Made by a program: the position numbers and the translations under genes
Notes under the pieces: model-generated
Databases searched by the model: none
What the model saw: the letters and a program-made list of their open reading frames with translations, nothing else
Told to the model about the DNA's origin: nothing
Shown: in pieces, positions 9,145 to 36,476 of the stretch
Layout of the letters: every line of letters starts with the position of its first letter
How positions within the stretch are numbered: position 1 is the stretch's first letter
Source of the DNA: a virus
Reading direction: 5' to 3' (one strand)
Virus genome (UHGV): UHGV-0287902
DNA length: 38,964 bases

Positions 9145-9173
9145 GGCGGTGCGGTAACACCGCCCATTTTTTA
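9145..9173 (+). terminator. intrinsic terminator hairpin upstream of gemA
   Basis: GGCGGTG-cggtaa-CACCGCC followed by CATTTTTTAT. Confidence 0.55.
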
Positions 9174-9186
9174 TGGAGCCACGATA

Positions 9187-9699
9187 ATGAATCGCGCTTC
9201 CCTGATTACCTTAATACATGTCGCAAAACGCGATCTACAGCTTGACCATGATACCTATACATCCGCGCTGCTGGCAGCCACCGGCAAATCCAGTTGCCGT
9301 GATATGTCACCCGGTGAGTTATCCCGCGTGCTGGATGTTTTCAAAAAACGCGGTTTTAAAGTGCGTCAGAAGCCGGTTAACCGGGCCTTAAAACCGGGTA
9401 CGGTGACCGCCAAAATTCGCGCCATCTGGAAAGTGATGCACCGGCAGGGATTTATCTCTGATGGCGGGGAAACGGCCCTTAACCGCTGGGTGAAATCGCA
9501 GACGGCCGCGCAGAACGACGGCGAAGGTGTGGCTAACTGGCAGTGGCTGGAGCAACAACCCGCGCTGGCCTCTGATGTGCTGGAGCGTCTCAAACGCTGG
9601 CACCGCCGCAAAATGCTGGCAGCCCTGGATATGTCGGAACGTGCAGTGATGAGTTATGAGCGTGTTTGCAGGCTGTATGAAAAATCATTCCCCCGTTAA
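9187..9699 (+). CDS. gemA: GemA-like regulatory protein (Mu gp16 family)
   Basis: 170 aa; position before mor/C; RBS GGAG. Confidence 0.75.
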   Translation: MNRASLITLIHVAKRDLQLDHDTYTSALLAATGKSSCRDMSPGELSRVLDVFKKRGFKVRQKPVNRALKPGTVTAKIRAIWKVMHRQGFISDGGETALNRWVKSQTAAQNDGEGVANWQWLEQQPALASDVLERLKRWHRRKMLAALDMSERAVMSYERVCRLYEKSFPR

Positions 9700-9703
9700 C
9701 CCC

Positions 9704-9735
9704 AAATCCCGCCACAGCGCGGGATTTTTATTTTA
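9704..9735 (+). terminator. intrinsic terminator after gemA
   Basis: AAATCCCGC-cacagc-GCGGGATTT followed by TTATTTTAAA. Confidence 0.65.
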
Positions 9736-9769
9736 AACTTGCCCTGTGTAATGATGACCGGAGGCGGGT

Positions 9770-10192
9770 ATGGCTGAAACACAGATGAGCATGTTTGGTG
9801 ACAGCGAACAGCTGCACGCGCTGATTGACCGTCTGGATGATATTCCTGATGATGAGCTGAAAAAGAACTGGCCCGGCACGCTGCGGGACCTGGTTGATGT
9901 GATCAGTGCTGAACTGCACCGTCAGGGGATTGAACCTGCTCAGGCGGGAATGCTTGCCCGTAAGGTTGCAGCCGCACAGGCCGGGTACATGGGCGGGCGT
10001 GGTTATTATCTCCCGGTCGGTGAATCCCTTTTCACCGAACTGCGCAATAATGAAATTTTTTCCCGCTGGAGCCAGGGCGAAAAAATTGAAACCCTGCGCC
10101 GCCACTACCAGATGTCAGAGACGCAGATTTACTCCGTTATCCGCAACCAGCGTCGCCTGCATCAGGAACGCACGCAGCCACGGCTTTTCTGA
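9770..10192 (+). CDS. Mor/C-family transcription activator
   Basis: 140 aa; C-terminal HTH region GEKIETLRRHYQMSETQIYSVIRNQRR resembles Mor/C; GGAGG RBS; only copy seen. Confidence 0.8.
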   Translation: MAETQMSMFGDSEQLHALIDRLDDIPDDELKKNWPGTLRDLVDVISAELHRQGIEPAQAGMLARKVAAAQAGYMGGRGYYLPVGESLFTELRNNEIFSRWSQGEKIETLRRHYQMSETQIYSVIRNQRRLHQERTQPRLF

Positions 10193-10263
10193 TATTCCGC
10201 AAATCCTGCCCACTTTTTCCCACGGTTACGCTGACTCAGAGAACACCATGAGACAGCGTAACA

Positions 10264-10764
10264 ATGCCAAAACTCCCCGCACCCCTGCGTAAAAAGCTGA
10301 TTGCCCTTGTTCTGGCCGGAGCCGGGACGTTCACCATTGCCACGCACTACACCGGCTACTGGGAAGGGAAAGAAAACACCACGTACATTGATCCCACCGG
10401 CACCCCCACCATCTGTTACGGCCATACCGGCCCGGATGTGAAACCGGGGATGACAAAAACTGATGAAGAGTGTCTGGAGCTGCTGGAAAAGGACATGAAA
10501 TGGGCCTTTGCGGCTATCGATCGTCATGTTCAGGTGCCGCTTACCCGTGGTCAGACGGTGGCGCTGGCCTCCTGGATTTTCTGGGCCGGTGAAACGAACT
10601 TTCGCAACTCCACGCTCCTGCGCCTTATCAATGCCGGGCAGATGCCCGCGTCCTGTAAGCAGTATATCCGCTGGATTTATTCAAAGGGGGTAAAACTCCC
10701 CGGTCTTGAGGCCCGCCGTTCGGCGGATGAATGGTTATGTCGTTACGATTTGCCGAAAGTCTGA
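10264..10764 (+). CDS. lys: endolysin, T4-lysozyme-like (GH24) with N-terminal SAR-like segment
   Basis: 166 aa; catalytic E-D-T pattern YWEGKE...IDPTG...TICYGHT; Gly/Ala-rich hydrophobic N-terminus. Confidence 0.9.
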   Translation: MPKLPAPLRKKLIALVLAGAGTFTIATHYTGYWEGKENTTYIDPTGTPTICYGHTGPDVKPGMTKTDEECLELLEKDMKWAFAAIDRHVQVPLTRGQTVALASWIFWAGETNFRNSTLLRLINAGQMPASCKQYIRWIYSKGVKLPGLEARRSADEWLCRYDLPKV

Positions 10765-17653: not shown

Positions 17654-17655
17654 CG

Positions 17656-17735
17656 GTCAGTGGCGGGGGTCGAACCCGCATACATGATCCACCCGGAGGC
17701 AGGCACCGACTTTACCAGTTAAGCGTACACTGACC
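17656..17735 (-). other. tRNA-like structured element (T-arm plus 7-bp acceptor-like stem), not a canonical tRNA
   Basis: Minus strand: GTCAGTG ... GCGGG-TTCGACC-CCCGC-CACTGAC-C; no convincing D or anticodon arm. Confidence 0.3.
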
Positions 17736-18248: not shown

Positions 18249-18425
18249 TGGTTTAAGGTATGCAAACGTATTACCTTACCCCCTTCAGGCGCGTGTCGTG
18301 ATTTTCTAACCTGTATTTAACGGGCTTTAAAATCTGCGTGAAGCGCCTTTCTCATTCCCCCCCTGTCAGCACTTTCTGAAGTCCCGCAAAACCAGCCCCA
18401 AAAATACCCGGCTTATGCTGCCGGT

Positions 18426-19559
18426 ATGAAGACAGAAAATCACCCAAAAGACGCAAATCGCCCCTCCGGTTTAGCCGTGCTTTCAGCTTCGCTGACTGCA
18501 TCCGGCGACGGATGGTGTCAGTTACTGCCAGCCGGTCGGGTAAAGGCCCGTGACGGTCGCCCGGAAAAACCGACTGAAGGCTGGCTGATTAACGAATCCG
18601 CCTGTAACCGGATGAAAGCCGGGCTTTCCGCCCTGCATCAGCCGTTACTGATTGATTATGACCATCACTCCGTGAATGCGCAGAAAAACGGATTCAAGGC
18701 TATTGCTGCAGGATGGGTTAAGCCGGAAAACATCGAATGGCGTGAGGGTCAGGGGATTTTCATTAAACCTGAATGGACACCACAGGCACAAAAACATATT
18801 GATGACCGTGAATATGCCTATCTGTCTGCATATATGCATTATTTCGCTGACACCGGGGAACCCTACCTGTTGCGCATGGCTTCCCTGACGAATGATCCGG
18901 GTATTACGGGTATGAACCCTGTCGCGGCACTCAGTGCTGATGATCTCTATGTCGTTTCCCCTTCTCAGGAGCAATCCCCCATGAATGAGCAATTACGCCA
19001 GTTGCTGACGGCGCTCGGTCTGACCGTGGCTGACGGTGACGAATTTACACCGGAACTGGGCACGGCGGCGCTGTCTGCCCTTACCGGGATCAAAACCCGT
19101 GCGGATGCGCACGACACCCTGAAAACGCAGGTTGCCAGCCTGTCGGCAGAACTGGAAACCGCAAAAGGCACACCAACTGGCGGCACTATTGATCTGACGA
19201 AATATGTGCCCGTTGAGACGTATAACGCCCTGCGTACCGAATATGCCGCGCTGTCGGCACAACACGGCAGCACCACGCTGGAGCAGTTGCTGGATAAGGC
19301 CGAGTCCGAAGGACGCATTTTCAAAAGCGAACGCGGATACATGGAAGGACTCGGACAACAGATTGGCGTCGCGGCACTTTCTGCACAGCTTGACGCCCGC
19401 CAGCCGGTTGCGGCTCTGACCACTCTTCAGACCGACACCGTAACCGTGCCGGATAAAAAGACCGCCACCGCTGTGCTGTCGGCTGAAGATATCGCCGCCG
19501 CACGTCTGTTGGGTAAAACCGAAGCCGAGTTCCTGAAAATGAAAGAGGAAATGCAATAA
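18426..19559 (+). CDS. I: head maturation protease / scaffold (Mu I/Z-like)
   Basis: 377 aa; precedes major capsid gene; follows 177-bp non-coding gap. Confidence 0.85.
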   Translation: MKTENHPKDANRPSGLAVLSASLTASGDGWCQLLPAGRVKARDGRPEKPTEGWLINESACNRMKAGLSALHQPLLIDYDHHSVNAQKNGFKAIAAGWVKPENIEWREGQGIFIKPEWTPQAQKHIDDREYAYLSAYMHYFADTGEPYLLRMASLTNDPGITGMNPVAALSADDLYVVSPSQEQSPMNEQLRQLLTALGLTVADGDEFTPELGTAALSALTGIKTRADAHDTLKTQVASLSAELETAKGTPTGGTIDLTKYVPVETYNALRTEYAALSAQHGSTTLEQLLDKAESEGRIFKSERGYMEGLGQQIGVAALSAQLDARQPVAALTTLQTDTVTVPDKKTATAVLSAEDIAAARLLGKTEAEFLKMKEEMQ

Positions 19560-24661: not shown

Positions 24662-26719
24662 ATGGCAAAAAACCTGAAAGCCTCCCTGATTGTCGATTTA
24701 CTCGGCAATATTTCTGCCAAATCCCGCCAGTGGTCACAGGAGCTGGGGGCATTCTCCCGTTCCGGCAGGACGGGGCTGGGTGGTCTTGGAAATGCAGCAC
24801 GTCGTGCCGGTCAGGAGACAGAACTTGTCGGCTCCCGTATGCAGCGAACGCTTGCCGGTGTTCGTGGCAGTATCCGCACGGTGACATCAGATTTTGACCG
24901 CCTTCAGGGCAGCATTACCGGCACCATCGGGCGGATAAGCAACCTTTACGGGATGCTGGCGGGAGGGGCTGCGGTCTACGGGTTTAATAAAGCCTTTATC
25001 CGCCCGGCCGCAGAGATGGAGAACTATATTCTGCGTCTCAACGCCATTAATCATGGCGATACGGCAAAAACGGAAGCAGTGAAAGCCTGGGCGGTACAGA
25101 ACGCCAAAGACACCACCTGGGGGCTGGCGGGGGTTATGCAGGAATACGCCTCCAGTCGCGGGTTCGGTATGAGTGACAGGGAAGCCCGTCGCTTTATTAC
25201 CATGCTTCAGGATCAGGGCGGCTATCACGGCTGGTCACTGTCAGATGCACAGGGTGCGTCCCTGCAACTCAAACAGATGTTTGCCCGCCAGAGTATCCAG
25301 GCAGCGGACGCCAATATTCTGACCGGATACGGGATTAACGTTTACCAGTTGCTGGCCGATAAGCTGGGTGTAAACCAGAAGATCATCCGTGAGAAAGGCG
25401 AGAAAGGAAAACTGGGACCGGACAGCATTCGCCTGTTATTTCAGGTGATGGCCGAACAAGCAAAAGGTGCCCAGAAAAACGCCATGAATTCCTGGACGGG
25501 AATGACGTCCATGATGGGCGATGTCTGGGACGGATTTGCCCGCGAGGTGATGGCAAAGGGACCGTTTGACAGCCTGAAAAAGAGCCTGAAAGGCTTTCTG
25601 GATTATGCTGATGCGGCACAGAAAAGCGGCTTACAGGATAAGCTGGCCACACAGACGGCCTCAGCCCTGAATCAGGGATTTGAGTATGCCAGAGACGCTG
25701 CGACCGGCTTTTACCGGGTCATTCAGAAAGTCAGGGAAACGCTTCAGGCACTGCGCGACGCCGGTTATGGCGATGCGCTGGATCGCATTGGTCAGGGTGC
25801 GCAGACCGCCGCAAAGTACCTGATGTATATGTATCTCGCCTCCCGTGCGCTGAAGGTGCTCAGGTTTGCGGGGACGGGGGCATTACGTCTCGGCGCAACC
25901 CCCTTACGCTATGGCATGGCGATGACCTCCGTGCTGACGTCGCCCTTCCGCAAACCGCAGACCACTGTACCGGGAACGCAGCCCGGACGCGCTGGCCGGT
26001 TCCTGAATTTCCTTACCGGGGTAAATCCGGCTGCCGTTCAGCCCGTGCTGGTCACCAACTGGCCTGCGGGTGGCCTGGCCTCAGGTGGCGGGGATGTGGT
26101 GGTCAGCGGTGACGGCAAAACCGTGCGCGGCCGTAAAAAACGCGGCCCCGGACGTGGACGGGGTGTCACGACCGTCGTGACTGCCGGTGAGCAACTGGCG
26201 GAGAGTGCCGGTAAACAGGGCTTCTTCGGTCGTATGATGAGCCGTGCCGGTGGTCTGCTAACGGCGGCCGGAAACCGCATGGGGCTGGGGCGTTTTGCCG
26301 GGCTGTTCCGTGGTGCCGGTCGGCTGGGTGGTGGTGCCCTGTGGGCCGGTGCCATGGCGGCTCCTGTACTGCTGGACAGCAGCGCCAGTGCAGCCGATAA
26401 AGCCGGTGCCGTGGGTTCCCTTGCCGGAAGTATCGCCGGTGGCGCGCTGGGGGCGGCAGCTGGTCCGGTCGGGGTTGCCATTGGTTCCACGGTGGGCAGC
26501 TATCTCGGTGATTATCTGGGGGGCTGGCTGACGCAGGCCTGGCAGAAACTGCGTGGCGGCAGTGACGAAAACGGCGGACAGGCCACCGCGAAAACCGCCG
26601 CACGGGTGGAGCTTGTGGCCCCTGAAGGCTGGCGGGCGCGCAGTATTGATGTGGATGATACCGCACAGCATGGCCTGGATGTGAACGTCTGGAACGGAGG
26701 GAACTATGGCCTCTACTGA
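24662..26719 (+). CDS. tail tape measure protein
   Basis: 685 aa, Gly/Ala-rich C-terminal region. Confidence 0.9.
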   Translation: MAKNLKASLIVDLLGNISAKSRQWSQELGAFSRSGRTGLGGLGNAARRAGQETELVGSRMQRTLAGVRGSIRTVTSDFDRLQGSITGTIGRISNLYGMLAGGAAVYGFNKAFIRPAAEMENYILRLNAINHGDTAKTEAVKAWAVQNAKDTTWGLAGVMQEYASSRGFGMSDREARRFITMLQDQGGYHGWSLSDAQGASLQLKQMFARQSIQAADANILTGYGINVYQLLADKLGVNQKIIREKGEKGKLGPDSIRLLFQVMAEQAKGAQKNAMNSWTGMTSMMGDVWDGFAREVMAKGPFDSLKKSLKGFLDYADAAQKSGLQDKLATQTASALNQGFEYARDAATGFYRVIQKVRETLQALRDAGYGDALDRIGQGAQTAAKYLMYMYLASRALKVLRFAGTGALRLGATPLRYGMAMTSVLTSPFRKPQTTVPGTQPGRAGRFLNFLTGVNPAAVQPVLVTNWPAGGLASGGGDVVVSGDGKTVRGRKKRGPGRGRGVTTVVTAGEQLAESAGKQGFFGRMMSRAGGLLTAAGNRMGLGRFAGLFRGAGRLGGGALWAGAMAAPVLLDSSASAADKAGAVGSLAGSIAGGALGAAAGPVGVAIGSTVGSYLGDYLGGWLTQAWQKLRGGSDENGGQATAKTAARVELVAPEGWRARSIDVDDTAQHGLDVNVWNGGNYGLY

Positions 26720-34336: not shown

Positions 34337-34421
34337 CGCTTTTTTGAATTTCCGCAAAACACATATTTTTCAGCGGTCGCTATTCTGACTCTGTTTAATT
34401 CAGAAACAGGCAGAAAAGACG

Positions 34422-36476
34422 ATGTCAGACTCCAAGTGGAAAATGCTCTCCGCCATGCCCGGAGAGTTTTCAGTCAAGGTTGCCGGTGGCACGGTGGCAT
34501 TTATTGAAAGCCCTTTCCGCCCTTCGGGTAATAAAGGGGGGATCACCTTCGCAGACTGCGTGATCCGCTTCAGCACGAAAGAGCCATTATGGGTAATGCC
34601 GGTATCCGGTAATCCCAGTGCAGAAATCACCAGTTCAGGCGTGACTGGCATCATTCCAATCACATCTGACGTGGCCGGAACGCTCACGCCCTCCGACTGG
34701 AATGCACCGGATAACGCCGGGCCTTCCGGTAGCACGAATGGCAGCAGTTCAGAGCCGGAATATTACTTTGTTGTCATTCTCGCGGGTCAGTCAAATGGCA
34801 TGGCCTACGGCGAGGGGCTGCCGTTACCGGATTCGTTTGACCGCCCGGACCCACGCATTAAGCAACTGGCACGCCGCAGTACGGTAACGCCCAACGGTAC
34901 GTCGTGTACATACAACGACATCATTCCGGCAGACCACTGCCTGCATGATGTTCAGGATATGAGCGGGATAAACCACCCGAAAGCTGATCTGGCAAAAGGC
35001 CAGTACGGGACTGTCGGTCAGGGGTTGCATATTGCCAAAAAACTGCTTCCCTATATCCCACAGAATGCCGGGATACTTCTGGTGCCCTGTTGTCGTGGCG
35101 GGTCAGCATTCACCACTGGAGCCGACGGCTCATTCAGTGAGGCCAGCGGTGCTTCCGCTGATTCTTCACGCTGGGGGGCCGGTAAACCTCTGTATCAGGA
35201 CCTGGTAAGCCGCACCAAAGTCGCGCTGGCGAAAAACCCGAAAAACAAACTTCTGGCTGTGGTCTGGATGCAGGGAGAGGCAGACCTTGCCTCAGGAAGC
35301 CAGCAGCATAATAGTTTATTCACGGCCATGGTTCAGCAGTTCAGAACTGACCTGGCTCCGCTTGCTGCGCAGTGCGTGAGTGGAAATGCCACCACGGTGC
35401 CGTGGATTTGCGGTGATACCACGTATTACTGGAAAAACGCTGGCACCGATAAATATGAGGCAGTATACGGTGGCTACAAAGGCAAGGAAGCACAGAAAAT
35501 TTTCTTTGTACCGTTCCTGACGGATGAGAATGGACAGAGCACGCCAACGAATGCTCCGGCGGAAGACCCGGATATTGTGGCTGTCGGGTATTACGGTGCA
35601 GCATCCCGAACCCAGGGCAGTTTTGTTTCGACACAGCGTGACAGCCATTTCAGCTCATGGGCACGCAGGGGCGTCATTTCAGACCGTCTGGCCTCAGCTA
35701 TTATGCTCCATGCAGGGCGCACGGCTGAACTGATGCGCGGGCAGACCGTGACACCACCGGATGAGAAGCCGTCACCTGATACACCATCAAAACCGTCCAC
35801 GCCACCCGCAGACACCACGACGATGAGTACGCTATTTGCTTACCGGGCATCTGAGTCTGAAGGACGGTTGACACCACAGGGTTGGGCTGCCGGAGGTGGC
35901 AAGGCTCAAATCGTGGATGATGCCGGAGCCAGCGGGGGTAAGGCAATGAAACTGACCAAGGAAACAGGAAGAGCCCCCTGGTACCTTGAGCATGATGCTG
36001 GTAATGGTGCGGACCTGCTGGGTAAAGGTGGTCTTGTCAGTTGTCGTTTTAAACTCGATGGCGCGCTTACGGCTAATCAGTACGCACTGGCGCTGTACTG
36101 GCCGGTTTCTGCCCTGCCGCAAGGGGTTACTCTGGAAGGAAATGCCGGTCATAACCTGCTGGCATCGTTCTACGTACAGAGCGATGCCACAGACCTTAAC
36201 GTGATGTATCACAAAGGAAACACGGCGCAGAACACGAAGTTGGGGTCATTCGGCGCATTTAATAACGAATGGCATACGCTGGGCTTCCGTTTTGCCGGTA
36301 ACAACAGTATTGAGGTGACGCCGGTCATTGATGGTAAGGACGGGACACCATTCATGCTGTCGCAGTCTTCGGTCGGCACGTTTACGGCAGACAAGTTGCG
36401 CGTGACCGATATCACTAAAAATGCGACTTACCCGGTACTGATTGACAGTATCGTGGTGGAAGTGAATAACGCGTAA
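34422..36476 (+). CDS. SASA-domain carbohydrate O-acetylesterase (NanS-like) with C-terminal jelly-roll-like domain
   Basis: 684 aa; ILAGQSNGMAYGE motif, later RDSHF; Pro/Ser/Thr linker PPDEKPSPDTPSKPSTPPADTT; weak RBS. Confidence 0.8.
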   Translation: MSDSKWKMLSAMPGEFSVKVAGGTVAFIESPFRPSGNKGGITFADCVIRFSTKEPLWVMPVSGNPSAEITSSGVTGIIPITSDVAGTLTPSDWNAPDNAGPSGSTNGSSSEPEYYFVVILAGQSNGMAYGEGLPLPDSFDRPDPRIKQLARRSTVTPNGTSCTYNDIIPADHCLHDVQDMSGINHPKADLAKGQYGTVGQGLHIAKKLLPYIPQNAGILLVPCCRGGSAFTTGADGSFSEASGASADSSRWGAGKPLYQDLVSRTKVALAKNPKNKLLAVVWMQGEADLASGSQQHNSLFTAMVQQFRTDLAPLAAQCVSGNATTVPWICGDTTYYWKNAGTDKYEAVYGGYKGKEAQKIFFVPFLTDENGQSTPTNAPAEDPDIVAVGYYGAASRTQGSFVSTQRDSHFSSWARRGVISDRLASAIMLHAGRTAELMRGQTVTPPDEKPSPDTPSKPSTPPADTTTMSTLFAYRASESEGRLTPQGWAAGGGKAQIVDDAGASGGKAMKLTKETGRAPWYLEHDAGNGADLLGKGGLVSCRFKLDGALTANQYALALYWPVSALPQGVTLEGNAGHNLLASFYVQSDATDLNVMYHKGNTAQNTKLGSFGAFNNEWHTLGFRFAGNNSIEVTPVIDGKDGTPFMLSQSSVGTFTADKLRVTDITKNATYPVLIDSIVVEVNNA

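What the first reader, a model, noticed from the sequence alone, without database searches (positions are those of the whole stretch)
9145..10263. Only one Mor/C-family activator, separated from gemA by a terminator
Mu uses two paralogous activators in cascade (Mor for the middle promoter, C for late promoters). I see only one such gene here, lying after a strong terminator and directly before lys; a second hairpin terminator precedes gemA. Either the cascade is compressed to one activator, or the second activator is a diverged protein elsewhere; the three-HTH 183-aa protein at 7591-8142 is a candidate.
Basis: partly seen in the sequence, partly recalled or inferred. Interest (0 to 1): 0.4.

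Follow-up and report, generated by a model that had tools for sequence, protein, structure and literature searches.

The report
Mu-like prophage with one late activator
This Mu-like prophage of E. coli really has a single Mor/C-type activator, a relative of Mu's late activator C sitting behind the terminator that ends the early genes; this is the usual arrangement in Mu-like phages, so it is ordinary, and only how the activator gene itself is switched on remains unknown.

Summary
Coordinates 9145-10263 hold a hairpin (9145-9164), gemA (9187-9699), a strong intrinsic terminator (9704-9727), one Mor/C-family gene (9770-10192) and then lys (10264).

A profile of 145 family members found no second Mor/C gene in any of the six frames of the whole prophage. 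The same procedure found both Mor and C in Mu. The protein is a C orthologue, not a Mor. Compared with Mu, mor and the middle genes gp18-20 are missing.

This layout is common. It occurs in 231 of 5,426 complete E. coli genomes, in Salmonella and in Citrobacter, and 34 of 48 phage records with a family hit have one copy. Only Mu's closest relatives have two.

The 183-aa protein is a SANT/Myb-type accessory regulator. Relatives with the same layout lack it, so it is not a hidden Mor.

A conserved late-promoter box precedes lys, I and a 684-aa esterase gene, but not the activator gene. That gene carries a conserved weak promoter-like element inside the terminator (GCCACA-17-TAAACT), which stays attached to it when foreign genes are inserted upstream.

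How this promoter is turned on is unresolved. Self-activation is not supported.

The parts
8877..9116 (-). Reverse-strand 79-aa ORF, the counterpart of Mu gp15. It travels together with hairpin 1.
   Evidence: ORF list. PHROG 32893, 1.3e-45. Mu has gp15 on the reverse strand at the same place. Where this gene is absent (L003, L004, L006), hairpin 1 is absent too and gemA overlaps the upstream gene.
9145..9164 (+). Hairpin 1: GGCGGTG-cggtaa-CACCGCC followed by caTTTTTTat, 22 nt before gemA. Possible partial terminator.
   Evidence: Terminator scan. Fold -13.3 kcal/mol but z = -1.3. Mu has the same stem with a different loop at 8193-8212.
9187..9699 (+). gemA, the last gene of the early operon.
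   Evidence: Pfam GemA 1.8e-28. PHROG 286. RefSeq 'gp16 family protein'.
9704..9727 (+). Hairpin 2: AAATCCCGC-cacagc-GCGGGATTT with a U tract at 9728-9737. Intrinsic terminator of the early operon and insulator of the activator gene.
   Evidence: -13.5 kcal/mol, z = -4.2. The stem is invariant and only loop positions 5-6 vary in the E. coli, Salmonella and Citrobacter loci, apart from single substitutions in L018/L021 and in the post-gemA copy of L040. L043 keeps the dyad through changes on both arms. The hairpin is duplicated on both sides of inserted genes in L004, L006, L020 and L026.
9711..9739 (+). Putative promoter of the activator gene (called PC here): -35-like GCCACA (9711-9716), 17-bp spacer, -10-like TAAACT (9734-9739). 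Predicted start near 9746.
   Evidence: GCCACA-N16-18-TAnnnT lies upstream of the activator gene in 38 of 44 loci. The -10 is TATAGT in Salmonella and TATATT in Citrobacter at the same offset. The block from GCCACA onwards stays with the gene in insertion variant L040. Only 7 of 12 consensus matches, so the promoter scan does not list it. Inferred, not mapped.
9747..9752 (+). Alternative -10-like hexamer TGTAAT. It would place the hairpin dyad centre at -43.5, the geometry of Mor and C sites.
   Evidence: Read from the sequence; geometry from PMC4287176. Not conserved in the O157-type relatives (ACCGGGAACGCGAG instead).
9770..10192 (+). The only Mor/C-family activator, an orthologue of Mu C. 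Shine-Dalgarno GGAGG at 9760-9764. Clamp-binding-like motifs QMSMF at the N terminus and QPRLF at the C terminus.
   Evidence: Pfam Mor 6.7e-31. Mu C 103 bits and 39.7% identity against Mu Mor 47 bits and 28%. PDB: C 2e-28, Mor 2.5e-11. Neighbour-joining clade with C. Motifs read from the translation and compared with PMC12867686.
10185..10232 (+). Late promoter Plys: box TTTTCTGATATTCCGCAAATCC (10185-10206) and -10 TACGCT (10227-10232). The box overlaps the activator's stop codon. No terminator lies between the activator gene and lys.
   Evidence: The box is conserved in L003, L009, L010 and L041 with the same spacing. Fold of 10185-10240: z = -0.74.
10264..10764 (+). lys (endolysin), the first late gene.
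   Evidence: ORF. Annotated lysozyme in relatives. Pfam Phage_lysozyme in L008 and L009.
18372..18419 (+). Late promoter PI: box CTTTCTGAAGTCCCGCAAAACC and -10 TATGCT (18414-18419), 6 nt before the ATG of gene I.
   Evidence: Conserved in L001. I homology to Mu I.
34340..34386 (+). Third late-type promoter: box TTTTTTGAATTTCCGCAAAACA and -10 TATTCT (34381-34386), in front of the 684-aa gene.
   Evidence: Found by the box scan: 2 mismatches in 18 positions, with the next best site in the window at 4. The gene has Pfam SASA esterase and DUF6645 domains.
7591..8142 (+). Accessory, not Mor/C.
   Evidence: Weak Pfam Myb and HTH hits. PHROG 323, 2e-52. RefSeq name. Distribution.

Best explanation
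The region is the early/late boundary of an E. coli Mu-like prophage that runs a two-tier programme instead of Mu's three tiers. This is the type I take to include Sp18 of O157 Sakai.

Shown:
- The early operon ends with gemA and an intrinsic terminator (9704-9727).
- The next gene (9770-10192) is the only Mor/C-family activator. It is the counterpart of Mu's late activator C.
- mor and the middle genes gp18-20 of Mu do not exist here.
- A conserved box, TTTTCTGA-N4-CCGCAAA, lies about 20 bp upstream of a TAnnnT -10 in front of lys, I and a 684-aa esterase gene.
- The activator gene has no such box.
- The activator gene keeps the terminator, or at least the part from GCCACA onwards, directly upstream, even when foreign genes are inserted between it and gemA.

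Inferred:
- The activator drives the boxed promoters as Mu C drives Mu's late promoters. The box centre is at about -44.5 if transcription starts 7 nt after the -10.
- The activator gene is its own transcription unit. The terminator insulates it from early and outside transcription, and it is read from a weak promoter with a good -10 and a poor -35 embedded in the terminator (GCCACA-17-TAAACT).
- Its transcripts continue into lys.

Most speculative step: the delay that Mor provides in Mu comes here from the weakness of this promoter and some terminator leak, combined with the rise in template number during replicative transposition. The beta-clamp dependence reported for Mu C may add to it, since the protein keeps both clamp-binding-like motifs.
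For: - One family member only: (Mu as positive control gives two).
- C orthology: and synteny with Mu.
- Terminator.
- No terminator between the activator gene and lys.
- The same gene order with a single activator occurs in 231 of 5,426 E. coli genomes, Salmonella (57), Citrobacter (70) and metagenome and viral contigs (60, 73, 75).
- Hairpin conservation and duplication around inserted genes.
- -10 conserved at a fixed offset from the hairpin.
- Late box: 3 sites with at most 2 mismatches in 18 positions, the next at 4. Box plus -10 gives 4 hits against 0.285 in shuffles. The box is conserved across relatives.
- No box at the activator gene: best site has 7 mismatches, which is background.
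- Function of the family: Sp18 of O157 Sakai is spontaneously induced, packaged and forms particles (PMC2669165). A relative sits inside an Stx phage flanked by a target duplication.
- Clamp requirement of Mu C and the family-wide motifs: PMC12867686.
Against: - No transcript has been mapped.
- The promoter is weak by consensus (7 of 12) and is not listed by the scan.
- Its -35-like hexamer is not kept in L043 or L009.
- A weak unregulated promoter reading into a late activator and lys would be risky in a lysogen, so some control I did not find is likely.
- The viability of the insertion variants is unknown. L016 is simply an IS insertion.
- Mu C supplied from a plasmid activates late promoters without phage replication (PMC2582627). 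Clamp or dosage gating therefore cannot be absolute.
- That Sp18 is the O157-type relative seen is inferred, not checked.
Confidence: 0.55

Rival explanations
1. Attenuation only. The activator gene has no promoter of its own. A small fraction of early transcripts reads through the terminator at 9704-9727 (and through hairpin 1), and this leak is the timer.
For: The gene lies 43 nt after the hairpin on the same strand as the early operon. The putative promoter is poor. Two hairpins in series would give a graded leak. In other one-activator phages the gene is part of the early operon, overlapping gemA (BcepMu; MuM16-1).
Against: In L004, L006, L020 and L026 a reverse-strand gene and a second full hairpin lie between gemA and the activator gene. 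Read-through would have to pass two terminators and convergent transcription. A TAnnnT hexamer is kept at a fixed offset from the hairpin from E. coli to Citrobacter while the surrounding sequence diverges. The Pasteurella relative has a 130-nt spacer with a perfect TATAAT.
Confidence: 0.25
2. Positive autoregulation. The hairpin dyad doubles as a binding site for the activator at a Pm-like promoter (-10 TGTAAT at 9747-9752, dyad centre at -43.5), so a little activator amplifies itself.
For: The geometry matches Mor at Pm and C at late promoters exactly (PMC4287176, PMC2582627; sequence). In Mu the Mor site (AGTAA-AGCCGG-TTAAT, 9173-9188) also overlaps the early terminator hairpin. The stem sequence, not just the pairing, is conserved. 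The left arm CAAATCCCGCCAC resembles CAAATCCTGCCCAC in Plys.
Against: TGTAAT is replaced by unrelated sequence in the O157-type relatives. The dyad (AAATCCCGC-N6-GCGGGATTT) is unlike the late box, and the best late-box match upstream of the gene is at background level (7 mismatches). Variant L040 keeps only the right arm in front of the gene. The shared CAAATCC motif sits 4 bp further from the conserved -10 than in the late promoters.
Confidence: 0.1
3. An unrelated early protein plays Mor's part and activates the promoter of the activator gene. Candidates are the 183-aa SANT/Myb protein (7591-8142), GemA, or the TraR/DksA-like zinc-finger protein.
For: A good -10 with a poor -35 is the signature of an activator-dependent promoter. 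The 183-aa protein is an early-region DNA-binding protein present in all E. coli loci that cover its position.
Against: The 183-aa gene is absent from L008, L009, L010, L040, L042 and L043, which have the same layout. No binding site can be named. The TraR/DksA gene lies downstream of lys, so it is late.
Confidence: 0.08
4. The prophage is a cripple that lost mor by deletion and cannot run its late programme.
For: Compared with Mu, about 1.2 kb (mor to gp20) is missing.
Against: The layout is shared by hundreds of genomes and by species as far apart as Salmonella and Citrobacter, with intact ORFs. Most Mu-like phage isolates have one copy. Sp18 forms particles (PMC2669165). Mor does not group with C as a recent duplicate in the family tree.
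Confidence: 0.02

Closest known systems
[quoted passage not shown]
   Same: Best sequence match (39.7% identity, 2e-27 to 5e-31). Same position directly upstream of lys. Conserved GG..Y.P.G linker and recognition helix. Both clamp-binding-like motifs (PMC12867686). Target promoters have a TAnnnT -10, no -35 and an imperfect dyad centred near -44 (PMC2582627).
   Different: In Mu, C is the last gene of a Mor-dependent middle operon and is followed by a terminator. Here it is a unit of its own with no terminator before lys. The box differs: CTGA-N4-CCGCAA here, TTAT-N5-6-ATAA in Mu (PMC12867686). No box was found before P or before com-mom, and one lies before an extra esterase gene.
Mu Mor, the middle promoter Pm and the early terminator after mor
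   Same: A terminator hairpin ends the early operon and overlaps the promoter of the next unit. That promoter has a recognisable -10 and no -35 (PMC4287176).
   Different: No Mor gene is present. There is no 5-6-5 dyad of the Mor type. The protein is only 28% identical to Mor. The downstream genes gp18-20 are absent.
One-activator Mu-like phages BcepMu (gp01) and Shewanella MuM16-1 (p13)
   Same: A single Mor/C-family gene next to gemA.
   Different: There the activator gene overlaps the end of gemA and so belongs to the early operon, in the position Mor has in Mu. Here it is cut off from gemA by a terminator, in the position C has. The Pasteurella phage Pmp9 resembles the window in having a separate unit.
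Sp18, the Mu-like prophage of E. coli O157:H7 Sakai
   Same: O157:H7 genomes carry the 84%-identical version of this region, with the same gemA-hairpin-activator-lys order. Sp18 is reported as intact, spontaneously induced, packaged and particle-forming (PMC2669165).
   Different: That the O157-type locus is Sp18 itself was not checked here. The O157 type lacks hairpin 1, the reverse-strand gene and the TGTAAT hexamer.

Membership tests
[quoted passage not shown] | Sequence match to the family profile above the curated threshold | tested here: met
   106.9 bits against a cut-off of 24.9, covering profile positions 2-107 of 107. Own 145-member HMM 8.8e-52.
[quoted passage not shown] | Small protein (about 100-150 aa) with the invariant linker residues G, G, Y, P, G (C residues 70, 71, 75, 77, 79) and a C-terminal helix-turn-helix (PMC2582627) | tested here: met
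   140 aa. G75, G76, Y80, P82 and G84 align with the invariant columns. The helix region SETQIYSVI aligns with SQPQIYQII of C.
[quoted passage not shown] | Clamp-binding motifs: N-terminal Qx[D/E][L/M]F and C-terminal QPDLF (PMC12867686) | tested here: inconclusive
   QMSMF at residues 5-9 (S where the family consensus has D/E; S is allowed in the general QL[SD]LF motif) and QPRLF at the very C terminus (R for D). Read from the translation. Binding was not testable.
[quoted passage not shown] | Binds an imperfect dyad centred near -43.5 of promoters that have a -10 but no -35, and activates them | not testable with these tools
   In silico only. Conserved boxes lie about -44.5 from the predicted starts at lys, I and the 684-aa gene.
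Orthologue of Mu C (late activator) rather than of Mor | Closer to C than to Mor in sequence and in a family tree | tested here: met
   103 against 47 bits. PDB 2e-28 against 2.5e-11. A clade of 7 of 145 sequences holds C and the window protein, and Mor joins only at a clade of 28 (rough neighbour-joining tree).
Orthologue of Mu C (late activator) rather than of Mor | Lies after the early terminator and immediately upstream of lys | tested here: met
Mu-type three-tier cascade (early > Mor > C > late) | Two Mor/C paralogues, one in the early operon and one in a middle operon | tested here: not met
   One hit in the window and two in Mu with the same search. No counterparts of gp18-20 lie between gemA and the activator gene.
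Mu-type three-tier cascade (early > Mor > C > late) | The promoter of the C gene depends on a different activator bound to its own dyad | tested here: inconclusive
   No Mor-type 5-6-5 dyad and no late-type box lie upstream of the gene. The hairpin dyad is conserved in sequence, but its binder, if any, is unknown.
Intrinsic (factor-independent) terminator | G+C-rich stem-loop followed directly by a U tract, more stable than chance | tested here: met
   Hairpin 2: 9-bp stem, 6-nt loop, UUUUUAUUUU, -13.5 kcal/mol, z = -4.2. Hairpin 1 meets the pattern but not the stability test (z = -1.3). Termination itself was not testable.

The most novel reading that the evidence does not exclude
The activator gene is read from a weak promoter built into the early terminator and needs no dedicated activator. 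The switch to late transcription is then timed by replication itself, through template amplification by replicative transposition and clamp loading, so that replication does the job that Mor does in Mu. The sequence-conserved hairpin serves three purposes: terminator, insulator and promoter core.
Probability: 0.2. Interest if true: 0.5.

Novelty: new member of a known kind. Interest (0 to 1): 0.27.

Why it matters
Mu's Mor-then-C cascade is the textbook model, but these data show it is the exception. Most Mu-like phages, including a prophage type found in about 4% of complete E. coli genomes and in O157:H7, manage with one activator.

The one open point is how a C-type activator gene that is walled off from the early operon gets switched on. 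An answer would show what the extra Mor tier adds. It could also connect to the recent finding that Mu C needs the replication clamp. This is a modest, testable question rather than a surprise.

Tried and rejected
- **Second Mor/C gene.** Searched with single sequences, with a 145-member profile over all six frames, and with Pfam on the early proteins. Nothing was found.
- **The 183-aa protein as a hidden Mor.** Rejected on family, distribution and absence from relatives.
- **Hairpin dyad as a Mor-like site with TGTAAT as the -10.** Attractive geometry, but the hexamer is not conserved.
  - I first took Mu's Mor site to be the terminator hairpin itself. Re-reading PMC4390567 and scanning Mu showed it is AGTAA-AGCCGG-TTAAT, which only overlaps the hairpin.
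- **Late-type box upstream of the activator gene.** The CAAATCC[C/T]GCC similarity to Plys looked promising. The full box is absent and its spacing to the conserved -10 differs by 4 bp.
- **A P promoter and a C box at com-mom.** Not found.
- **Repressor operator at the activator promoter.** No shared motif with the c-ner region.
- **Known RNA families in 8800-10400.** None reaches threshold.
- **Wider sampling through the species genome collection.** This gave only one locus. The viral contig collection gave 33.
- **L016 as a natural deletion of the left hairpin arm.** It turned out to be an IS insertion with inverted ends TAATGCCG/CGGCATTA and an 11-bp duplication, so it says nothing about promoter limits.
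- **Literature.** No statement about one-activator Mu-like phages was found in the held library.
Full report
**What the window is.** It is a complete Mu-like prophage, 100% identical over the query to E. coli JE86-ST05. The gene order is:
- repressor at 414-1127 on the reverse strand, then ner, transposase A and B, gam, and counterparts of Mu gp11 and gp12;
- a 183-aa protein at 7591-8142;
- gemA at 9187-9699, a Mor-family gene at 9770-10192, lys at 10264-10764;
- head and tail genes, gin, a 684-aa gene, com and mom.

Repeats like transposase binding sites lie near both ends of the window. A statement about the window is therefore a statement about the whole prophage.

- gemA and the Mor-family gene are clear Pfam matches (1.8e-28 and 6.7e-31).
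- The hairpin at 9704-9727 has a 9-bp stem and a 6-nt loop, followed by TTTTTATTTT. It is a canonical intrinsic terminator: -13.5 kcal/mol, z = -4.2, and none of 200 shuffles folds as well.
- The hairpin at 9145-9164 fits the terminator pattern but is no more stable than shuffles of its G+C-rich surroundings (z = -1.3).
- Mu has the same stem with another loop and a poorer T run before its own gemA.
- Hairpin 1 travels with a reverse-strand gene, the counterpart of Mu gp15. Where that gene is missing the hairpin is missing too, and gemA overlaps the gene before it.

**There is only one Mor/C gene.**
- I built a profile from 145 family members, including Mu Mor and Mu C, and searched all 916 stop-to-stop reading frames of 25 aa or more on both strands.
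- Only 9758-10189 matched (8.8e-52). The next best had E = 1.5.
- The same procedure on Mu found both C (1.8e-47) and Mor (5.1e-34).
- Searches with Mu Mor and Mu C alone agree.

**The single gene is the counterpart of C, not of Mor.**
- It scores 103 bits (39.7% identity) with C and 47 bits (28%) with Mor.
- Among solved structures the best matches are 'Late transcription activator C' (2e-28), ahead of 'Middle operon regulator' (2.5e-11).
- In a rough neighbour-joining tree it shares a clade of 7 of 145 sequences with C, and Mor sits outside.
- Mu's order is gemA, mor (overlapping gemA), terminator and Pm, gp18, gp19, gp20, C, terminator, lys. The window's order is gemA, terminator, C-like gene, lys. 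What is missing is Mor and the front of the middle operon.

**This layout is ordinary.**
- Of 48 phage records with a match to the protein, only 14 hold two copies. All 14 carry an identical C match (39.7%) and include Mu, D108 and SfMu. The other 34 have one copy.
- The gemA-hairpin-activator-lys arrangement occurs in 231 of 5,426 complete E. coli genomes, including many O157:H7 strains.
- It also occurs in Salmonella (activator 67% identical), in Citrobacter (66%), and in viral and metagenome contigs. Each of these loci has one family member.
- Sp18, the Mu-like prophage of O157 Sakai, is reported as intact, spontaneously induced, efficiently packaged and particle-forming (PMC2669165). I infer that it is the O157-type relative but did not check this.
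- A relative lies inside an Stx phage, flanked by a target duplication.
- One-activator phages come in two designs. In BcepMu and MuM16-1 the gene overlaps gemA and belongs to the early operon. Here and in Pasteurella phage Pmp9 it is a separate unit.

**The hairpin before the activator gene is conserved as a sequence.**
- Across E. coli variants that differ by up to 16% in this region, and in Salmonella and Citrobacter, the stem is essentially invariant. The only exceptions are single substitutions in two loci. Only loop positions 5-6 change.
- In L043 (56% identical activator) the outer stem is changed on both arms (CCCATCCCGC/GCGGGATGGG), which keeps the dyad.
- The gemA-activator junction is a hot spot for inserted genes. 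In L004/L020 and L006/L026 a reverse-strand cassette is flanked by two full copies of the hairpin. In L040 and L041 a full copy follows gemA and a partial or degenerate copy precedes the activator gene.
- The activator gene thus keeps a terminator, or at least the part from GCCACA onwards, directly upstream. This looks like insulation from any incoming transcription.
- Insulation makes sense because no terminator separates the activator gene from lys in this phage (z = -0.74). Mu and Citrobacter do have one there.

**Promoters.**
- Comparing the regions before lys and I gave a shared box, TTTTCTRAnnTnCCGCAAAnCC, 19-20 bp upstream of a TAnnnT hexamer.
- Scanning the window with it gave three sites with at most 2 mismatches in 18 positions: lys (0), I (1), and an independent third site at 34340 (2), in front of the 684-aa SASA-esterase/DUF6645 gene. 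The next best sites have 4.
- A looser core of the box, CTRA-N4-CCGYAA, plus a correctly spaced -10 gave 4 hits, all on the + strand, against 0.285 in shuffles.
- The box is kept with the same spacing before lys in the O157 type, Citrobacter, L041 and L009.
- If transcription starts 7 nt after the -10, the box centre is at about -44.5. C and Mor sites are centred at -43.5 (PMC2582627, PMC4287176).
- Upstream of the activator gene the best match to the box has 7 mismatches, which is background (154 such sites). Self-activation through a late-type site is therefore not supported.
- What is conserved there is GCCACA-N17-TAAACT (TATAGT in Salmonella, TATATT in Citrobacter), present in 38 of 44 loci. 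This is a weak element with a good -10 and a poor -35, with the -35 part inside the hairpin loop.
- A second hexamer, TGTAAT at 9747-9752, would give the hairpin dyad exactly the Mor/C geometry. It is not conserved in the O157 type.

**The 183-aa protein.**
- It has three SANT/Myb-like repeats and belongs to PHROG 323, 'transcriptional regulator' (2e-52).
- It has no Mu counterpart.
- It is absent from L008, L009, L010, L040, L042 and L043, which share the one-activator layout.
- It is an accessory gene of the E. coli lineage, not the missing Mor.

**Mechanism.**
- Shown: one C-type activator; a terminator between it and the early operon; a conserved box at three late units; no such box at its own gene.
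- Inferred: the gene is a separate, insulated unit with a weak promoter embedded in the terminator, and its transcripts run on into lys.
- Speculative: timing comes from the weak promoter and some terminator leak, combined with template amplification during replicative transposition. The clamp dependence described for Mu C may add to this (PMC12867686), since the protein keeps QMSMF and QPRLF at its two ends.
- Rivals: read-through alone, self-activation through the hairpin dyad, and an unrelated early activator. None is excluded without transcript mapping.

**Verdict.** The feature is real and correctly described, but it is the common state of Mu-like phages, not an anomaly. The residual interest lies in how the insulated activator gene is switched on.

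Noticed in passing
window 34340-36476: A third late-type promoter box (TTTTTTGAATTTCCGCAAAACA, -10 TATTCT at 34381-34386) precedes a 684-aa gene with SASA (sialate O-acetylesterase-like) and DUF6645 domains. The gene lies between gin and com-mom and has no counterpart in Mu. It may be a late-expressed virion enzyme.
   Followed up: partly
window 37840-37950: The region before com-mom keeps the GATC clusters seen in Mu but lacks Mu's C-binding site (TTATgccccaATAA). It has no match to this phage's own late box either, so mom control probably differs from Mu.
   Followed up: partly
window 18414-18428; L001 about 21660: The -10 of the I promoter (TATGCT) ends 6 nt before the ATG of gene I, and no Shine-Dalgarno sequence lies between them. 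The predicted mRNA is therefore leaderless. The arrangement is conserved in the O157-type relative.
   Followed up: partly
window 17655-17734 (- strand): A tRNA-like element lies between the F-like and G-like genes. It reaches the Rfam tRNA gathering score (31 against 29 bits, E = 5e-5) but has an oversized anticodon region, and ARAGORN does not call it.
   Followed up: partly
L004 1983-2698; L006 1983-2773; L040; L041: The gemA-activator junction is a hot spot for inserted reverse-strand genes. The terminator hairpin is duplicated, fully or in part, on both sides of the insert.
   Followed up: partly
L016 about 1500-2990: A 1.5-kb element with inverted ends TAATGCCG.../...CGGCATTA is inserted inside the terminator hairpin, flanked by an 11-bp direct duplication GCCACAGCGCG. 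It looks like an IS4-family insertion that targets the G+C-rich palindrome.
   Followed up: no
window 24712-24728: ATTTCTGCCAAATCCCGCC lies inside the tape-measure gene. It repeats the exact left arm of the terminator hairpin and part of the late box. It may be chance.
   Followed up: no
window 1106-1151: A long imperfect hairpin (TTACCCG...CGGGTAA) followed by CTTTTT lies just upstream of the ner ribosome-binding site, in the leader of the early operon.
   Followed up: no
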